From NCBI RefSeq assembly GCF_009914755.1, contig NC_060932.1: a stretch of 64,000 nt of DNA, one strand, 5' to 3'. This document shows, piece after piece, positions 2,328-43,412 of the stretch. Both the position numbers and the translations under genes were made by a program. Each line of letters opens with the position of its first letter. Within the stretch, counting starts at the first letter, position 1. The notes below the pieces were generated by a model. It searched no databases. It was not told the origin of the DNA and saw only the letters and a program-made list of their open reading frames with translations. The DNA is from the human T2T-CHM13v2.0 reference genome, Homo sapiens.

Positions 2328-3279
2328 AATAATGATTTTCATTATATTTTAGACCTGCTTGTAAGCCTTTACTGTCAATTAAGATGAGGTAAAAATCCAC
2401 TTTAAATTGAAAACGTGCAAAATTGGTGATTTCTATTATGAAAAGTATCTGTTATAAAATTATATGTGATTCTTACAATCCTATTTAATCACATACACCT
2501 TATAGTTATTTATAATATGTGAAATATATGCCAAACTATACCTTATTATTTCAATGACACATATTAGTCATAATTCAAAGGGACAGGCATCCCCTCAAGT
2601 CTTATAGAAATAAGGATTTTGCATATAAAGATGCATATGTACACAGGTTAAACATCTTTGCCAAGCATTTTTGCATAGAAACAACTATCTAGTACTTTGT
2701 AAATAATATTGCATCATTTTACTTTATATATGTTTCCTTTTTTTTGCCTAGCATTTATGAAATGGCAAAATTTTAAAGCAAGGAAATAATTATTTGCATA
2801 AACTAAAACTCAAAACATACACTTATCAATTTAATACTAATAGAAAAGTAGTAACAAATTATCATTAAAATTTTGTAAATTAATACCGATGCTTAAATAA
2901 GTATAGCCAAATTTCCTCCACCTGCTTTACATGCTGAAAAGCACTAACTCCCTTGAGAGGCCTGTAACTAATTTACCCAACAAATATTTTTTGTATCGAT
3001 TCACAAACAATTTGTCTTTACATATTTTAAATTTGTCTTTAATAGTTTAAAAGCTTACAGATTTGACGGTGAACACAGGAACATTTGTCTTTTTAAAAAG
3101 AACACTTTCCCTCTTTAATAGCTGGAGCATCATGTTGTTTAGAGATAAACATAACAATTTTAATTTTTCCATAGAGCAATTTTTATACTAGGTTCACAAG
3201 TTTCATGGCATTGTATTTTTATAATATTCGAATGCTGTAACTTAAAATAGTTTTTAAAAGAGGAAAAGATAAATCTTTT
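2328..3279 (+). repeat. Left arm of a ~950-bp long inverted repeat (partner 20267-21219)
   Basis: Colinear by hand with the reverse complement of 20267-21219. Perfect blocks include 2415-2453 = rc(21092-21130), 39 bp, and 3115-3152 = rc(20394-20431), 38 bp. Confidence 0.97.
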
Positions 3280-6200: not shown

Positions 6201-8044
6201 TGAATGTTTAGATATTAGGATCACAGTTTAAATTGGAATGATATTTTCCAATAAATAAACTAAGATTTTAAAGAATTTTCTCTTAGTATTCTTTTGTAGG
6301 AAGTTAATTACAAATGTTAGGCCTTTGCACACACTTCTAAATTGTACCATCATAATTATTATTTTCTTCAGATTAGGAGACTTGTATTCAGAATCTAATA
6401 AAAGCCACAAAAATAAATTCCCGAAAAAATGCATGCATAATCGTGCATACAAAATGGTGCCTATGTTATGACACCCCCTAATAAGAGTTTTTAGAACAGA
6501 AGATGGAACTCTGGCTGCATGGAAGCTATTGCTGCCAGATCCCATCTTCTTCTCTATAGATGATGAAATCAATTTTGAAAAGCTTCCGGATCATTGAATA
6601 GATATATTCTGCTGAATTGCAGAGAAAGTACTTTATGCAGTGAAAATTTAGCTACTTTTACCATAGGCGCCTTGCCTTTTAGTTGTACTTCTTGTTTACA
6701 CTTTCGTTTTGATTCCCTGACACTTCTGCATAATTACATTAATGCCTTTGTTTCATATAGAACTAAACGTCTTGCCATCTCAATGCCAAAAACTTGAAAT
6801 TCTTCGTCTAGAGAATGTTTGTCAAAATGAGATTGGACCCTGGTAATACTTTGTTGCCTGTGCATTTTGCTGTGCCTCTTAGATTTAAAAATATTTTTTT
6901 CTTGAAAAGAGCAGTATACAAATATCAGGTTAATGGAAATTCACATCACTGGGGACCATCAGGATCAATAAAGAAGGAGAGTGACAAAAACAAAGGCCTT
7001 GGGAATCACAGTTTACCTTGGTAATAATTGCAGAGTGTTGATAGAATGATCATGATGAACTGAAACAATCATTGACATAAAAGTGAAAACTATCAATCAA
7101 ATGTTAGCGCGTTAGCAAGTTTTTTATCGAGTTCCTATGTTGTCAGTGTTCTCATAGGTAATTTTCCTTGATGATAGTCAGAATCTTACAGCTCTCTGAA
7201 ATGTATGGAGAAATCCAAATTCTGAAGCACCATAATAATATAAACCTGCTTTTTATTAGGACTTTGCATTATAGATATAGATATTTGTAATATGAATTTT
7301 TCTCACTTTACTTAATCTTATTCTGGGACCATACTTGAATGATTAATTGAGAAACAGAGGCAGGAGATTGTAGAATTAATGAAGACAAGAACCTCAATAA
7401 ATATATGTATAGTGTATATATATATATATTTATATAAATTTAAAGGCTTTCAATAATTTTTATTTTGTAATCACTGTAATGTAAGTTTTTAAACTTGAGA
7501 AGAAAGACTCAGTGAACATGAAAACAGGTCCATGTAAAGCATAGAATATAACAAACTCAACAGAATCTGAATGACCCCTGAAACAATATGCTAGCATAAT
7601 TGGAGCTCCAGAGGGAAAGGGGAGAAGCAATAGGAAGGAATATAGGCCTATTTCTTAAAGAAAAGATCGACACTACCAACCCCTATTTCCAAGAAGCACA
7701 AAGCGTACCAACAGGATAAACCCAGAGAAAAATACACCTAAGCACATCATACTCAAACAGCTGGCAACAAAAAAAGAGAATATATTAAATACAGCCGGAA
7801 AGAAAACACCCATTATATGCTGGAGAAAAGATGATTCGAATGAAGGCTGACTTCTCAGAAGAGACCAGAGACAACAGAATATTGTTTAAAATACTGAAAG
7901 AAAAAAAATCAGCCTTTAAATATGTAGCCAATAAAAAAACTGAGTGAATGTATTGCAAGCAGGCATGTAATATGAAAAATACTATACTAGGAAAAGTTCT
8001 TCAAGATGGAAGAGAATGGTAGTAGCTGGAAACTGAGAATCACC

Positions 8045-8650
8045 CTCAAAGACCTAAAGACAGAAATACCTACTCATCCCAGCCATCTCATTACTGTATA
8101 TATAACCAAAGGATATAAATTGTTCCATTATAAAGACACATGCACACGTATGTTCGTTGAAGCACTACTCACAATAGCAAAGACATGGAATCCACCTAAA
8201 TGCCCATTAAAATAGATTGAATAAAGAAATTATGGTACATATACACTATGGAATACTACGCAGCCATAAAAAGGAATGAGATAATATCCTTTGCAGTGAA
8301 AATGGAGCTGGAGGCCATTATCCTTAGCAAACTTATGGAGAAACAGAAAACCAAGGACTGCATGTTCTCACTTATAAGTGAAAACTAAATAATGAAAACA
8401 CATGGACACATAGAGGGGAACAGTACACACTGGGGCCTACAGGGGTGGCGAGTGGAAGGAAGGAAAGGATCAAGAAAAATAACTAATGGGTACTAGGCTT
8501 AATATTTGGGTACTAGGCTTAATATTTGGGTACTAGGCTTAATATTTGGGTGATGAAATAATCTGTACAATTAACCCCTAGGACACAAGTTTACCTATGT
8601 AACAAGCCTGCACATGACTTAAAATTAAAAAATAAAAATAAAAAAAGAAA
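8045..8650 (+). mobile_element. L1PA13-16-like 3' end
   Basis: AAAGACACATGCACACGTATGTTC...GGGTACTAGGCTTAATA..GGGTGATGAAATAATCTGTACA followed by an A-tail; short AATCAC duplication at both flanks. Confidence 0.85.
8487..8551 (+). repeat. Perfect 20-bp tandem triplication (TGGGTACTAGGCTTAATATT)x3
   Basis: Read directly from the sequence, inside the L1PA 3'UTR. Confidence 0.97.
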
Positions 8651-31989: not shown

Positions 31990-33360
31990 GGAACTGGGGT
32001 TTCAATGTTCATGTGACAAAACGGCACCATTGGGGCAACACAAAGTGAAAGAAACTGGCACTTTTATCCTTGCATAGTGGTGGAACTCTCTTAAGGTGAC
32101 CACTTCTGCCACAAGAAGACTATAAAAAACCTTGGATGCTGAGCTACTAAAAAAGTAAGGTAAATTTGGTGAGAAAAATTATGATCTGTTGAAAAATGTA
32201 AGAAGGCCAAATCTGGGCCACACATGAGTGTTGGGGAAAAAAATAAACCTATCTGCAAGGTGCAGAAAGCCCAAGATAAGAAATTAATGTAAGAACTTGT
32301 CCCAGATAGTAAAACCATAGGTATCCCACCACACGGTCACATGTCAAAACCACAATATAAAAATACTTTCACAACTCAGGGCACAAGAGACTTCTTCAAG
32401 GAAAAAGAAAAAAAAAAAAAAGTAAAAGAAAATAATTGTCCACCGCATAAAATGGATTAATGTGGAGACTCAAAACACACACACACACACAAACAGTATT
32501 ATTAATACCCCTAGGAACTTGAGATACTGGGACAATAAGAAGAAAATTAAAAAATATTAACGAATAAAATTTTTAAGACAAAAAATTAAATAGAAACAAA
32601 TTATCAAAATATACTATACAAAAACAATCAAAATTAAAACTTTCCTAAAAATTAAAAATATTGTTCAAAATTTACTGAATTAATAAAAAAGCAAAATAAA
32701 CTCAATTGAAAAGGGAATTAATGAACAAGAAGGATTATTGTGGAAATAATCTAGAATGTGATACAGAGATGAAAGATAAAAAAAAGAGAAACCGAATGAA
32801 ACATATCATAAAATGATAAAAGTCTGTGATATTTCAAGGGGAAAGAAACATCAATAGAAAGAATGCAAAGGGACAATAATTGAAATGACAATATCTAGAG
32901 GGTTTTCAAAACCAAATAAAAATATACATCCTTTTTAAGAAAAACATGAACTAGTCCTAAAACAAAATCGACATTTAGAGATAAATTACTGAAACCACAG
33001 AACTATTAGACACAGAAAAATAATCTTAGAAACACCAAGTTTGAAGGGCAAATTATCCTCAAATAATAAAAAGTACATGAATGGGGAATTTCTCATCAGG
33101 GATACATAAAATATTAGGTATAAATTTAGCCAAAAAAAATACAAGCCATTTACACTGAAAACTGCAAAACATTGCTAAGACAAATTAAAGAAAACATAGA
33201 GAAGTATACCATTCCTGGATCAAACAACTTAATGGTGTTAAAAGGCAATATTTTCCAACTTGATCTATGATTCAATTAAAATGCAATCAAAAGCCATGAC
33301 AGCTTTTTTTTTTTCAAAAACAGCCAGATAGATTCCAAAATTCATATTTTTATAATTAAA
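31990..33360 (+). mobile_element. Degenerate L1M fragments (5' region/ORF1 and ORF2)
   Basis: A-rich L1 motifs (ACACTGAAAACTGCAAAACATTGCTAAGA, GATTCCAAAATTCATAT). Confidence 0.7.
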
Positions 33361-33364
33361 CTCA

Positions 33365-33917
33365 GTAGTCCCCAAAGATGGGATCTTTCCCTGTTTGATA
33401 TTGCAGAGCCAATACATGAAACCAAAAGTGAGCATCAAGCAGAAGCTTTATTCCATGGCCAAAGAATGGAGAAGCAGGAGCATGGCTCGCAAACCAACCT
33501 CTCCACTAGAAAGGGATGAGGTGATTACAATATAGGGTTTCTCTAATAACAGGGACATTAAAAGTGAGGACATTGGAAGTGAGGGGAGAAATATTCATGT
33601 GTATTTTGGAAATGGGCAGTGAACTCAGAACCAGAGTGTCACCTTTCTTTTTGTCCATTATGGGTTCTTCTGGTCATTTTCATGGCAATTGTCAGCTGTC
33701 ATGATGCTGATGGGAATGTCATTTAGCATGGAAATAAGATTATAATAAAGCCTGAGATATTTTTGACGTCATGTGGTTGGCTCTCTTGGCTGTAACCAGT
33801 CTCAGCTGGTCTAGTTATAAAGGGAAATTTTACTGCAGGCATCTTGTTTCTTAGATAAGTAGAGTTAGAATGGGGTAGAAATTCAGCTACGTCATGGAGG
33901 CATTATAATGGGTGACA
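33365..33917 (-). mobile_element. Solo ERV1 LTR (MER67-like)
   Basis: Reverse strand starts TGTCACCCATTATAATGCCTCCATGACGTAGCTGAATTTC, resembling the remembered MER67 5' end; AATAAA is present on the LTR strand. Confidence 0.6.
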
Positions 33918-34891
33918 ATGTAGGAATGCAAAGGAGTTATTTTGTTTATAGTGAAAATCTTTTTGTCCTCAACTGAAACTAATCTTCTAGGACAAGTCTT
34001 AGATTTCAGAGGCTTTCTAAGGGTAGTTAGTTAATCTCTGTGATTATCATTTTATTCCCATAGGAAGAACTCTGTGACTCCCCTAAAACTTCCAAGAAGT
34101 GAGCAATTGCCACAAAAGGCTGCTTACTTTATGCATCTCATTTTCTGGATGCAGTAATATGACGAGTTTCCATTGGTTGCCTGAGGGTCAGTTTCCTGAG
34201 GAAGGAATTCAGGTAAGACAAATGTAAGTTTCAAGTTTTAAGACCAGGGAGGGTCAAATTATATGTTTATTCAAAAATTTAAATGTGGGAAAATTGGGCC
34301 AATTTCAGCCCCCCTTTTCCATTGACCAGTTCCTCAATCATGAGGAATCTAGTCATCCATCCTCTGGCTCCTTTATGCTGAAGAGGGGCAACATGGGATA
34401 ATGATGAAAAATGAAAATGTCACACCTGTAATTAGAAGTACTCATGAATACCTAGTTGGCCCTGGCATGTTGGAACACCATGATCTGTATACATTTATTT
34501 TGGTTTTAGAACAACCTTTTAAGCCATATTGAACTAGGGGATTAATAACACAGGCAAGCCAAATTTTAAAATACCAGAGACTATGAAGTGGATCCTCCAG
34601 GGAATCCAAGAGAACAATCCTAAGCCTACCAAAAATTATTCCTGATTCATCACATCCCAAATGGAAAAAAAAAAAAACATGGTTGTGAGGAGAACAATAA
34701 CAACCTGAAAAGTGCATGTTTCTTTTATGATTTCTTATCTAGGGTCTTTTGCTGGTCTTTGAATATTAACTTAAGGTCATACGAAGGTTCACAAGACCAT
34801 GACTATTTCCACTGGAAGGATGACAGAGGGACTGGTTTTGCCCAAATATGGTGAATCCACAGCTTAACATAAGCTAACTTGACAGATATAA

Positions 34892-34956
34892 ACTATAAAA
34901 AACCTTGGATGCTAAGCTACTAAAAAAATAAGGTCAATTTGGTGAGAAAAATTATG
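34892..34956 (+). repeat. 65-bp direct copy of 32119-32183 inside the ERV
   Basis: 62/65 identical to ACTATAAAAAACCTTGGATGCTGAGCTACTAAAAAAGTAAGGTAAATTTGGTGAGAAAAATTATG. Confidence 0.95.
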
Positions 34957-34980
34957 GGTTAGGGTTAGGGTTAGGGTCAG
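34956..34980 (+). repeat. Short interstitial telomeric sequence GGG(TTAGGG)3TCAG
   Basis: Direct reading; 34956-34976 is the canonical 21-nt human telomeric G-quadruplex sequence. Confidence 0.95.
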
Positions 34981-35741
34981 AAAAACCTCAAAAAGGCATA
35001 CTTATTGTGTTGCAGTTGATCTTCAGCAGGGTATGATTTTCAAGTCTTCATCAGGACTCAGTTCTCCAGTTCCAGTCCCCCATTTCTGACATAGACAAAT
35101 CATAAAAGGACCAAATTATTTACAAAATAAGTTTCAGTCTTAGTATACTCGGCCTGGTTATTTGCATAAAGCACAACAAGAATTCTTATCCATAGAGGCT
35201 TTTTAAAATGAAATTTGTTGGGACTTTTTCCCTAAAGAATCTCAGATTTAACTTTTAAAGACCTCTTGAGCCCAGCCAAGGATTTACCTGTGTCTGCAGA
35301 TACCTGTATAAATTGGGTGAACAACTTGAGATTCTTGGGCCAGTAGAAAGTAACATGTTTTTCTTATCACACTTCAGGAACCCTGCAAAGATATCTTGTA
35401 GACAAGGTAAAAGGCCAGTCTTTCCAAAGAAGCTTTTATCAGCGGTATAGAGTAAATCTAAGTTCCTCATAGCAGTCTGTTCATATGTGAAAATATGTCG
35501 TTCAGTTAAAGCCTTTGTAAAATAACTAGTGCCTCCAATTGGGTCCTGTTATAAAAGAAAACAGACTCTTATTGAACTTATGCAAATAACTATATTGCCA
35601 TAAATAAAAAATACTTACAAATAGTTTCCAAATTCTGAAGAAATCAAGTAGAGAGAGAGAAATATGCTTCAAATTTTGTATACAAGAATATATACTCTAC
35701 CCAATTGCTAAAGGCTGCAAGTAACTCAAAAGGAAAAAAGT

Positions 35742-36190: not shown

Positions 36191-38551
36191 ATTTTCTTGA
36201 CTCTGAAAAACAAAACAAAACAAAAAACTTCTATTAGTACAGCCCATGCAATTAATCCCTGTTCTGCTCAATATGGGGACTCATGAACACATTAGCTCTC
36301 TAATGACAGTCCTAGGATTTTTCTCTCTTGTCAAAATGTCACGACCTCCAAAGTTATTGGAAATCTTCATTTAATAGTCCTTTTCATGAATTCCTGTAAA
36401 GAAGCAAGTTTTGGCTGTAGCCGATTAAAAAACACTTTTTGAGAAGAATCAAAGTAAAACAGCAACACAGCCATGGTTAAAGACACAATAGACAAAGAAA
36501 TTTAGTTATTTCTGGGGCATACAACAATTTAATAATCGTAATTATTTTTGATAGCATATACTAAGACATATCAGAATTTTAGGAATTTTATACAATTTTG
36601 AAACACGTATTAATAACACACACACATGCACACACACACACACACATATATATAAAATCCAAAGAAAGTTAAACATCATTTCATATTTGACAATGCTTTC
36701 CTGTATAATTTTAACATACTAAATAACACTAACATGGTACTCTTAGACTTCCAAGGCCCCTAAAGTTAATTTTAATATAACTTTCTAAAGAATCTCATCA
36801 AATTTTAATCAATTTGACCATCAGATAAAATTTCCATAAATTTTTTATAACATTTTACAATTTTCAACTAAAGAGTAGATGAATGCTTCAAGAATACCCT
36901 GTTATTCCAGCACAGGTGCCCAGATGCATCAGTGTGCTTTTGAAATTAATGTTTCATTTATAGAAAAACTCTGAATTATTCTTATCCCTAAAAATCAGCT
37001 CTTACAATCTCACATGCCCACCTCTTTTCCAATAGTCTCTGGGCCTAGAAGGATTGAATAGTTTTAATTTCTGACCCTGTGTCTCACAAAGTGATTTATT
37101 TTGATTGTAGCCTTCTTCCCATTCAGAAGATGAGGCTTTGACTGGAACCAATGTTCAAGATTTAACAGGAGTTGATTCCTTTTTCATATCCAGGAGTGAA
37201 AGCTCTGACTTAACAGCACAAAGACATTAAAAGCAATAAAAAATTACACGCATATAAAAACCCTAATTCTTTTCAATCTCAGTTTTTTGAAGCAATTAAA
37301 AAACCAATAGGAATTATCTTGATAAAATGTAAAATGTTTCTTATACCAGTTACCAAAAAGCAAAGAAATACCTTCTGTAATGTGATGATTTCTCCTTATG
37401 GCTAGCTTCTTTAGATTTGCCATAAGTCAAACCTGATGAACAACTTAGACATAAATTGAAAGTTAAACCTGATGAACATTTTAGCCATACCAAGAAAAGT
37501 CAAGAGTATAGAATCAAGTTATACCTAAGGAAAACACAGCTTTCCTAGACCTTCAAGATAGACAGTTTAGTATCAGGCCACAATAGCAGTTAGAACCAGC
37601 GGAATAAAGTTACAGGAGGTGAGAAAAAAATTGAATGACTCAGGCCTTTTCAAGGGGAGAAAAAAAAGGCCAAAGCAGCAAGACACAATAGAGATGCACT
37701 TCTGAAATATAAATCAGAGAAGTTTTCAGAAAGAGATTATAGAATCAAAATGAAAACCTTTTGTAATTTTATTAAGAACAATAAAAATTTTAGGTAAACC
37801 TTGTTTTAACATAGGGGAAGAATCTTAGAAAGACTATTATAAATAATTCCTCTTAAATTATACCCAAGTTAATCACATACAAAATTTATTTTACAAATTC
37901 TTTTTTCACCAACTTCATTATTATGTACACAGACCATCTATGACATGCTTGGACCTTCTGATTTGGCACATTTTATATGAAGAATTATATGTTAACTAGA
38001 ATTCTTACTTTTAGTAACTTTAAATTTTAGTGAAAAATCTAGGAAGCAAGAAATCCTGAACTGCCTGTGAGATATTGGCATTTTATAGATGAAAGTACTT
38101 CACAGATTTTTAGAAACATGTTTTCTCATATCATAACCCATTCTTAATTGGAACTGACCGAGACATTCAATGAGCATCTGTTACTGAATTTAAAATAATT
38201 TTGAGATTTTAAATTACACAAAAAGTTTACCTACAAGCATTTAATACCATTTATATGTACTCCATTTATTCATTTTTATCAGTTTATTTAGATTACTTCT
38301 GGAAACTGAGATATTAGAAAAAGCTAGTCATCACTTCAAGTTATTTCCTTGTTAACCATTTTTTATAGTCTCTAATTATCAGATATCTATCAGATTTTTA
38401 CCAATTTATCAGATTTTATCAGATATTTACCAAATTTTAACTTAAAGTTAAGCATGTGGGTATACTTATTAAAACTTAGAATATTCAGCTGTTTTCATTA
38501 AACCAACATTATTAAATTAGTTATATTTATTTTTAAAAAGTTACACATATT

Positions 38552-38847
<296 letters not shown>

Positions 38848-40254
38848 AAAGTACACATATAATGATCTCATTTTGTTCTTAGCTGAATTTATAGTCTTAT
38901 AAACGTTTGCTGAACCTTGACACTTTAAAATATCCAGCAGAGGTAAATGTAAAATAATCAGTAAAGCCAGACAAAACATGCTGACAAATTCTGAAGACAC
39001 TTCTATTTCTATTTTACCGGTAATATTACAGTCAGCTTGTTTATTAAAGATTTACTTAAGTCAGGTAAACCTGAAAAATGCTTGGAATTATTTAGTTAAT
39101 ATATGAGTGCTCTTTTATTTATGAGCCCATTTGGTACCCTGTAAACACAACACATAACATGGACACACACACACACACACACCAAGATCCAGTAGCTTTT
39201 AGCTCAGAATTTCAGCCATGAGATAATAGTTAAACTCACTGGTTTACAAACATGTTAATATGGCTGACCTTTGCCCTGATTAGTCATCCAGTGAAGGTTG
39301 TGAACTAAAATTTTGGGTAAAGCAGTTTTCATGGCAGTTCAATTTTTAGACTAAACCTTCCCAGACTCCCAAGAATGCTGGGGCCAAATAACACCACAGA
39401 AGACCATCATGTACTTAGTGGGCCCAACCCTGCTTAAAAAAGCAGCATAAAAGCCTGGACACATGAAATACCATCCTGGTTTTCCTTTCAACTGGAAAAT
39501 GAATCCAATTGTAAGACAGCACTACAATTCATAAACCTTTCAAGATCAGACAAAAAAGGGCACGTCCAGAGTAGTGTGGTCATAGACTTTCCCTTGCTCC
39601 ATCAGCCTACAACTACATTCAGATCAACCATGAAAAATGGATGCAAGCAGGCTGCACTCTGAGATCAAATCCCAACCCCCATGACTACATCGACATACAC
39701 ACAATCACCAAAACATAATGCAACCACTGCAGCAACCAACAAGCTCCAAGAATATCCAAACTGAAACAGTTGAAGGGCTTCCTCTTTCCATCAGCTGGTC
39801 TTGTTCAATCTGCAACAGAAATTCCTTCAGGATCTCTCAAATTGAGAGGAGCCAATCCCACTGTCTGGACTCACAAAGGATACTCACTTGTCTCCACACC
39901 TATAAACAATTACTAACAAGCCCCAGGAGTGTGCAAACTGAAGCATTTAGGGTGCTTCCTTCATCAGATGGGCTGATTCAACCTGCAGATGGAAATGCCT
40001 CCAGAATTTGCCAAATTGAAAAGAGTCATTCTGGCTGTCTGGTATTCACAAAAGACAATCACCTATCCAGAGCTAAATGTCACATTTCAAAGGATGTTCT
40101 TCCTAGGCACTCAGGAACACAGTTGGGGCTGGCAGTGGCAGGGCCAAATAGAGAGAGACTGAAATCCACCTCAGGCCAAAAATGGGCTGGCAGCTGCTTA
40201 GGAGGGCTTCCAAGATTGTCCTGACCCATGGGGTAGCCAAGCCATGATCAATGC

Positions 40255-40273: not shown

Positions 40274-40719
40274 AAATCTAAGGGTTTAGGTCCTGTTGTT
40301 TCCCTCACAGCCAGCCAATCACTGAGACAATGAGCACTGCCAGCAAAAAAAGGCTTTTAAGTTGGGTGATGTCAGTGAGAGAGATAGATGCCAAATCACA
40401 AATCTATCTTTCCCAACTGACTAAAATTGAGGGTTTATATAGTGGAGAAGGAATATATGTGGAAGAAAACAGAAATTTGGGGAAACTAATGTAGAAATCA
40501 TGAGAGATGAGGGGTCTGGCATCTAATTGTCTGGGTGTGGAGTTTCAGTTTCTTGCCTAAGGGGGAAACTCAGGTAAGACAAATGTAAATTTCAAGTTTT
40601 AATACCAGGGAGGGTCAGTTTCTATGTTTATTCATAACACCATGAATATTAGTTCTATGGGACAATTCGGCCAGTTTCAGAAGGATCAAGTTTGCGAAGA
40701 CAAAAGGAATGCTCTAAAG

Positions 40720-42612: not shown

Positions 42613-43412
42613 TGAGAGGTGAAGCTGGCTGGGCTTCGGTGTGGGGTGGGGACTTGGAGAACTTTTCTGTCTAGCTAAAGGATTGTAAACGCACCAATCA
42701 GCACTCTGTGTCTAGCTAAAGGTTGGTAAATGCACCAATCAATCAGTGCTCTGTGTCTAGCTAATTGGGTGGGGACTTGGAGAACTTTTCTGTCTAGCTA
42801 AAGGATTGTAAATGCACCAATCAGTGCTCTCTGTGTCTAGCTAAAGGTTTGTAAATGCACCAATCAGTACTCTGCCAAAACAGACCAATCAGCACTCTAT
42901 AAAATGGACCAATCAGCACTCTGTAAAATGGACCAATCAGCAGGATGTGGGTGGGGCCAAATAAGGGAATAAAAGCAGGCCACCAGCGCAGGCAGCAGCA
43001 ACTGGCTTTGGTCACCTTCTGCAACGTGGAAGCTTTTTTCTTTTGCTCTTCACAATAAGTCTTGCTGCTGCTCACTCGTTGGGTCCGCATTGCCTTTATG
43101 AGCTGTAACCCTCACTGTGAAGGTCTGCAGCTTCACTCCTGAAGTCAGCGAGACTATGAACCCACTGGGAGGAAGGAACAACTCCAGATGTGCTGCCTGG
43201 AAGCTCTGTGACAGTCAGCGGGAAGGTCTGCAGCTTCACTCCTGAAGACAGCGAGACCACGAACCCACCAGAAAGAAGAAACTCCAGACATGTCCAGACA
43301 TCAGAAGGAACAAACTCTGGACACACCATCTTTAAGAACTGGTAACACGGTGAGGGTCCGCAGCTTTATTGTTGAAGTCAGCGAGACTAAGAGCCCACCA
43401 ATTCCGGACACA
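42613..43412 (+). mobile_element. Solo LTR12 (HERV9/ERV9 LTR)
   Basis: TGAGAGGTGAAGCTGGCTGGG...CCAATTCCGGACACA; 4-bp TSD GTGG (42609-42612, 43413-43416); seven CCAATC boxes in U3. Confidence 0.95.

What the first reader, a model, noticed from the sequence alone, without database searches (positions are those of the whole stretch)
32119..34980. Repair scar: locally templated 65-bp insertion fused to telomeric repeats inside an ERV
Seen: 34892-34956 is a 62/65 identical direct copy of 32119-32183, which lies 2773 bp upstream in what looks like an old L1 and outside the provirus. The last G of the copy runs straight into GGG(TTAGGG)3TCAG, after which ERV-like sequence resumes. Established: short interstitial telomeric repeats in mammals are attributed to TTAGGG insertion during double-strand-break repair, and short locally templated insertions are typical of polymerase-theta or template-switch repair. 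Inference: one germline event in which the broken end copied a nearby template, was extended by telomerase from its 3' ATG/G end, and was then re-joined. Both signatures at one junction is unusual. The ~5% divergence, from only 3 differences, loosely suggests an ape or catarrhine age.
Basis: partly seen in the sequence, partly recalled or inferred. Interest (0 to 1): 0.7.

Follow-up and report, generated by a model that had tools for sequence, protein, structure and literature searches.

The report
Old DNA-break scar with telomere repeats
An 87-base insertion in an old retrovirus-like repeat on human chromosome 8 consists of a copy of DNA from 2.8 kb away followed directly by three telomere repeats; it is likely the scar of one germline break repair, and it joins two already known kinds of scar at one spot.

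Summary
Observation confirmed. 34892-34956 is a 62/65 direct copy of 32119-32183 and runs into GGG(TTAGGG)3T. Seven of seven paralogous copies of the host LTR element carry only 8-10 nt where this locus has 87 nt (34888-34974). So the copy and the telomeric run are both insertions, and 32119-32183 is the donor. Anatomy: 4-nt filler + 65-bp copy + (GGTTAG)x3, then the host resumes at GGTCAG. Both halves are known classes: repair-mediated duplication (Pace 2009; donor <5 kb) and short interstitial telomeric sequence (ITS). The ITS very likely is the 8q21 entry in two published catalogues, where it is shared with chimpanzee. I did not find the attached duplication in those tables or in Pace's list. 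0 of 30 other ITS tested had such a 5'-side copy; 1 of 30 had a 3'-side one. Most likely one event: local strand invasion, then telomerase, then end joining (0.5). Copying from telomere DNA/TERRA (0.25) and two separate events (0.17) remain open; no primate orthologs were available. A polymerase-theta label fits poorly (donor too far). No sign of function. New variant of a known kind, modest interest.

The parts
32119..32183 (+). Donor of the 65-bp copy; in old, probably L1-derived sequence (family recalled, not shown)
   Evidence: donor direction from empty paralogs
34700..34887 (-). Host LTR-element internal sequence left of the break (element on minus strand); 15-20% diverged from 7 paralogs
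34888..34891 (+). 4-nt filler ATAA (first A may be host); 34887-34892 TATAAA repeats donor 32121-32126, a possible aborted first priming
   Evidence: this 6-mer falls in the first 12 nt of 0.9% of random window positions; noticed after the fact
34892..34956 (+). 65-bp templated copy (acceptor), 62/65 identical to donor, ending TTATG
34957..34974 (+). Inserted telomeric DNA, three whole GGTTAG units; with G34956 and host GG(T) it reads GGG(TTAGGG)3T, four G3 runs, the minimal telomeric G-quadruplex motif (motif recalled)
34975..35075 (-). Host element resumes at GGTCAG (5 of 6 matches to the telomeric unit in register; GGT shared); paralogs carry 8-10 nt between the two flanks
34133..34308 (-). 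Start of the 3' LTR-like copy, preceded by a purine tract
40277..40680 (-). 5' LTR-like copy (inner boundary approximate), followed by a primer-binding-site-like stretch

Best explanation
The 87 nt at 34888-34974 is an insertion made of a 4-nt filler, a 65-bp copy of 32119-32183 and three GGTTAG units, and it likely arose in one germline double-strand-break repair in which the broken end first copied the nearby template and was then likely extended by telomerase. Shown: composition, donor, empty paralogous sites, loss of about 7-10 host nt, polarity. Inferred steps: (1) break in the old LTR element; (2) the left 3' end primed on DNA 2.77 kb upstream (sister chromatid or loop-back; SDSA/template-switch type), perhaps twice, leaving the filler; (3) the nascent strand was released ending TTATG; (4) telomerase used it as an imperfect TTAG primer and added GGTTAG three times; (5) it was joined to the right end at GGTCAG, bluntly or through GGT. 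The scar is then fixed and most likely neutral.
For: 7 of 7 fetched paralogs lack copy and TTAGGG run. Size, donor distance, filler and small deletion match repair-mediated duplications (824 of 1,136 donors within 5 kb; filler 1-68 nt, deletion 1-15 nt). G-rich strand lies directly 3' of the copy with no spacer and one shared G, the same order as TERC-ITS (templated fragment, then repeats). Insert is three whole GGTTAG units after TTA(T)G, the register in which human telomerase adds and pauses (recalled). In-register bases at ITS break ends are reported in 75-80% of mouse, rat and human loci. Reversed-pattern controls gave 0, 0, 3, 2, 3, 1 matches, so chance or slippage rarely makes such runs. 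A two-copy duplicate abuts a random point in only 1.6% of 14,111 control positions, so two unrelated events at one junction are unlikely a priori. Telomerase adds repeats at Cas9 breaks in human cells and the authors expect end joining to leave interstitial insertions.
Against: No orthologs could be read, so simultaneity is untested. Only one base of the primer end (G) pairs without a bulge. The right flank matches the telomeric unit at 5 of 6, which equally fits priming of the right end on telomeric DNA/RNA. Telomere insertions at breaks can depend on TERRA, BLM and POLD3 and multi-donor insertions are 8.7% in that assay; most cancer neotelomeres lacked the 2-4 nt complementarity signal. Resection and ATR repress telomerase at breaks, and strand invasion implies resection. 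Enrichment of duplicates beside ITS in my sample is not significant (2 of 30, p 0.085; 1 of 30 without the known target-site duplication, p 0.39).
Confidence: 0.5

Rival explanations
1. One event, but no telomerase: the telomeric bases were copied from telomere DNA or TERRA, either by a second template switch of the left end or by the right end priming on the G-strand through its 5-of-6 match, the two new strands then annealing at TTATG/G. This is a two-donor repair duplication whose second donor is a telomere.
For: Two-donor acceptors exist (20 of 1,136, one donor always within 5 kb, 15 with the second on another chromosome). Telomere insertions rose with TERRA and fell with BLM loss. GGTCAG/GGTTAG match at the right junction.
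Against: Only 18-22 nt, perfect, whole GGTTAG units; no variant repeats or subtelomeric bases that would mark a DNA donor. No local telomeric template in 64 kb.
Confidence: 0.25
2. Two successive events at one site: an ITS insertion and a repair duplication on different branches, the first perhaps making the site fragile.
For: No ortholog seen; chimpanzee sharing is reported for the ITS only. 3/65 allows 1.0-12.9%.
Against: The two pieces abut with a shared G and no spacer; chance adjacency is 1.6% per position; the authors of the ITS papers regard ITS as scars at fragile sites rather than causes.
Confidence: 0.17
3. Ordinary repair duplication plus microsatellite slippage: the host's GGTCAG unit mutated to GGTTAG and was amplified, so the telomere likeness is accidental.
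For: The host site is telomere-like: GGTCAG in 5 of 7 paralogs, GGGT in the lost stretch in 5 of 7. The run is only about 3 units of new sequence.
Against: The last unit keeps the C seen in 7 of 7 paralogs while the three new units all have T; the reversed 21-mer never occurs in the genome; s-ITS appear in one step in comparative studies.
Confidence: 0.08

Closest known systems
Repair-mediated duplications (RD; Pace et al. 2009, PMC2671141)
   Same: Insertion >=50 bp interrupting a transposable element, single donor within 5 kb, filler, small deletion, no poly(A), no target-site duplication.
   Different: The 3' 'filler' is telomeric DNA. 'telomer' occurs once in that paper's main text, in another sense, and 0 times in 4 supplements. 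No Table S1 coordinate starts 7705-7707 (expected hg18 place about 77.06 Mb, offset recalled).
Short interstitial telomeric sequences (s-ITS; Nergadze 2007 PMC2246262, Santagostino 2020 PMC7215372)
   Same: Short near-perfect TTAGGG run inserted at a break with deletion, added sequence and in-register bases. Very likely the listed locus: hg19 chr8:76901542-76901570, 29 bp, 2 mismatches (row 93; window 34952-34980 is 29 nt with 2 departures) and HSA8q21 26(1), chimpanzee 26(1).
   Different: The added sequence is not 'random' but a traceable local copy. This locus is not in the table of ITS with a defined mechanism; 'addition and deletion' was 0 of 25 in primates there. Horse ITS with inverted local duplications are described.
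TERC-ITS (Nergadze 2007; PMC8537989)
   Same: Same order: break end, templated fragment of tens of bases, telomeric repeats, rejoin.
   Different: Here the fragment comes from nearby chromosomal DNA, not telomerase RNA (no Rfam match at E<=1).
Polymerase-theta templated insertions (10.1101/2019.12.20.882852)
   Same: Templated insertion with possible aborted priming and 2-3 nt microhomology.
   Different: Defined as 3-30 bp with template within 50 bp; here 65 bp from 2,773 bp away.

Membership tests
Repair-mediated duplication | Insertion >=50 bp interrupting a repeat whose two halves are colinear in family members | tested here: met
   87 nt versus 8-10 nt in 7 of 7 paralogs
Repair-mediated duplication | One donor, >50 bp and <5 kb away | tested here: met
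   2773 bp; only other match (searches are lower bounds)
Repair-mediated duplication | Filler, deletion or microhomology; no poly(A), no target-site duplication | tested here: met
   4-nt filler, 7-10 nt lost, no tail, no flanking direct repeat
Repair-mediated duplication | Empty orthologous site in an outgroup species | not testable with these tools
   The genome search holds no relatives of this genome; paralogs used instead
Short ITS | >=4 TTAGGG units with <1 mismatch per unit, interstitial | tested here: met
   34956-34980, 25 nt, 1 mismatch; 29 nt with 2 departures
Short ITS | Absent from the pre-insertion sequence | tested here: met
   no TTAGGGTTAG in 7 of 7 paralog loci
Short ITS | Inserted in one step rather than grown by slippage | tested here: inconclusive
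   only indirect: reversed-pattern control 0; needs orthologs
Short ITS | Bases in register with the repeat at the 3' end that was extended | tested here: inconclusive
   1 nt (G), or TTA-G with a bulge; 1 nt is expected by chance in up to 25%
TERC-ITS | Added fragment derived from telomerase RNA | tested here: not met
   fragment is 95% identical to local DNA; no Rfam match
Polymerase-theta templated insertion | 3-30 bp, template within 50 bp of the break | tested here: not met
   65 bp, 2773 bp away
Endogenous retrovirus (host) | Paired LTRs, purine tract, primer site, dispersed copies | tested here: met
   primer-site identity recalled only
Endogenous retrovirus (host) | gag/pol/env homology or named family match | tested here: inconclusive
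   no Pfam retroviral hit in 34310-35700 and 38860-40250; 36240-38480 not scanned; no Dfam here

The most novel reading that the evidence does not exclude
Telomerase can act on the released nascent strand of a strand-invasion (SDSA-type) intermediate in the primate germline, so some of the 'random' additions beside ITS are really local templated copies, and RD-ITS chimeras form a small unrecognised class; this locus and chr3:35.966 Mb (L019) would be its first two members.
Probability: 0.25. Interest if true: 0.55.

Novelty: new variant of a known kind. Interest (0 to 1): 0.33.

Why it matters
If the best reading holds, the locus is a clean fossil of two repair activities acting in turn on one broken end, and it suggests that 'random' sequence beside ITS should be searched against the local few kb. 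That is testable genome-wide with primate alignments. It would refine, not overturn, the ITS-as-scar model. No gene or RefSeq element lies at the site (hub annotation) and nothing here indicates function; the G4 motif and short TRF-site array are only possibilities.

Tried and rejected
Insert as part of the host family: rejected. TERC-derived fragment: rejected. Local telomeric template: none in 64 kb. Hairpin at the junction: none (z 0.40). Larger tandem duplication or target-site duplication: rejected, flanks are colinear and only the 65 bp is shared. Pfam confirmation of L1 (0 families in 6 frames) and of retroviral genes (1 weak unrelated DUF hit in 6 frames): nothing. Family paralogs of the donor stretch itself: none found. 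LTR-LTR dating: only 85 bp aligns well (86%); a forced longer alignment gave 28% mismatch and is unreliable. ITS survey: 30 loci tested, taken in list order out of about 85 interstitial candidates listed (my tally); sites near chromosome ends and the chr2 fusion were left out by eye; the test saw only +-3 kb (+-5 kb for the first 20), duplicates of 22-400 bp at >=78%. Nergadze 2004 was not held. Literature searches for the combination listed no paper on it; one search listed 25 of 35, 15 of 1,344. Earlier scan notes were closed.

Full report
Observation. The two 65-bp stretches, 32119-32183 and 34892-34956, match at 62 of 65 bases without gaps, 2773 bp apart. The copy's last G begins GGG(TTAGGG)3T, 34956-34977. 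This is the only telomeric site in the window, and the 21-mer read backwards has no match in the genome.

Which is the copy. A whole-genome search with 34700-35200 returned 41 matches; family matches cover the left flank up to query base 189 or the right flank from 276, and bases 193-257 match only the upstream donor. All 7 paralog loci fetched have 8-10 nt between the flanks where this locus has 87 nt, 34888-34974, and none contains the copy or TTAGGGTTAG. So both pieces are inserted and 32119-32183 is the donor. The insert reads: ATAA, the 65-bp copy, GGTTAG three times; the host resumes at GGTCAG. Boundaries are uncertain by 1 nt on the left, 1 nt between copy and repeats, and 3 nt (GGT) on the right.

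Host and donor. The host lies on the minus strand between LTR-like copies (86% over 85 bp), with a purine tract and a primer-site-like stretch in the expected places and two Alu-like inserts (masked in the hub table). I could not name the family; an ERV1/MER4-group label would be recall only. Pfam found no retroviral domain. The donor's L1 origin is plausible by eye but not shown.

Age. Flank divergence from paralogs is 15-20% against 4.6% between donor and copy (95% interval 1.0-12.9%), so the scar is much younger than the host. At 2.2e-9 per year (rate from Pace 2009) this is about 10 Myr, range 2-29. Nergadze 2007 lists an HSA8q21 ITS of 26 bp, 1 mismatch, also in chimpanzee; Santagostino 2020 lists hg19 chr8:76901542-76901570, 29 bp, 2 mismatches. 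Window 34952-34980 is 29 nt with two departures, and my pattern searches showed no other chr8 ITS between 35.9 and 123 Mb (these are partial lists). I take it as the same locus, by band, length and mismatch, not by liftover. That gives over 6 Myr for the ITS; no ITS-less allele was seen in 1000 Genomes for any of the 229 loci.

How unusual. I tested 30 other ITS for a two-copy duplicate of 22 bp or more within 3 kb ending within 12 bp of the run. Hits: L018, the published 2q31 flanking duplication, and L019, a 75-bp, 83% copy 573 bp away on the 3' side. None of the 30 had a non-tandem 5'-side copy. The control rate was 229 of 14,111 random positions (1.6%); 2 of 30 gives p 0.085 and 1 of 30 gives p 0.39. 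So the pairing is uncommon, and I found no significant class enrichment. The sample is small and not random.

Mechanism. Shown: parts, order, polarity, small loss of host bases. Inferred: a break; the left 3' end copied upstream DNA; TATAAA at the left junction repeats the donor's start, which hints at a first aborted priming (0.9% by a post hoc control); the released end TTATG was extended with three GGTTAG units, the register telomerase produces (recalled); the ends were joined. The main rival keeps one event but takes the repeats from telomere DNA or TERRA: two-donor repair duplications are known, telomere insertions can depend on TERRA and BLM, and the right end matches the telomeric unit at 5 of 6. 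Two separate events and slippage from the host's GGTCAG are less likely but not excluded without orthologs.

Comparison. The copy meets every testable feature of a repair-mediated duplication and fails the size and distance definition of polymerase-theta insertions. The run meets the s-ITS definition. ITS with added sequence, deletions and duplications are described in rodents, primates and horse, and TERC-ITS have the same order of parts with a different template. I did not find this locus in Pace's Table S1 (30 of 151 chr8 places also read; hg18 offset recalled) or among ITS with a defined mechanism, and six searches listed no paper on the pairing; subscription papers are mostly not searched.

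What I saw of each paper. PMC2246262: passages, supplement search, supplement 5 whole. PMC7215372: passages, section 5, supplement part 1 of 3 and a search. PMC2671141: parts 1-3 of 8, passages, supplement searches. PMC8537989, PMC5110952, PMC11293586, PMC5388398, 10.1101/2022.10.31.514589, 10.1101/2022.09.30.509517, 10.1101/2019.12.20.882852: passages only; preprint supplements not seen. Nergadze 2004: not held.

Verdict. A real, well-resolved composite repair scar; each half is a known class and the ITS is very likely catalogued; the traced local donor is the new detail. New variant of a known kind, interest 0.33.

Noticed in passing
L019 (G000:C3:35965720-35965750 ITS; copy adjacent, partner 573 bp away): Second ITS (20 perfect nt) abutting a 75-bp, 62/75 direct duplicate of nearby sequence, on the 3' side of the G-strand; no other genomic copy of that segment listed. 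Direction unknown without an empty site.
   Followed up: partly
L034 (G000:C20:36186598-36186625): ITS flanked by a 15-bp direct repeat with 10 extra bases before the run; below my 22-bp threshold.
   Followed up: no
L018 (G000:C2:181765981): 67-bp perfect ITS between 41-bp direct repeats; the published 2q31 duplication case.
   Followed up: yes
L039 (G000:C3:50800698): ITS ends GGTTAG followed by ACAAA, which resembles read-through past the telomerase RNA template boundary (recalled, unchecked).
   Followed up: no
G000:C16:14.73 Mb and 28.73-30.60 Mb: Eight places share the same ITS end and flank, probably copies in a segmental duplication.
   Followed up: no
window 2328-3279 and 20267-21219: 979-bp inverted pair at 85% identity, one end touching the RefSeq enhancer 21152-21747; probably two copies of one LTR family.
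   Followed up: no
window 8487-8551: Perfect 20-bp unit x3.2, a young tandem duplication in a repeat.
   Followed up: no
window 39735-39887 / 39912-40062: 155-bp internal direct repeat at 72% in the host element's 5' region.
   Followed up: no
window 42644-43400: 41-43-bp and 24-bp tandem units, LTR12-like by recall.
   Followed up: no
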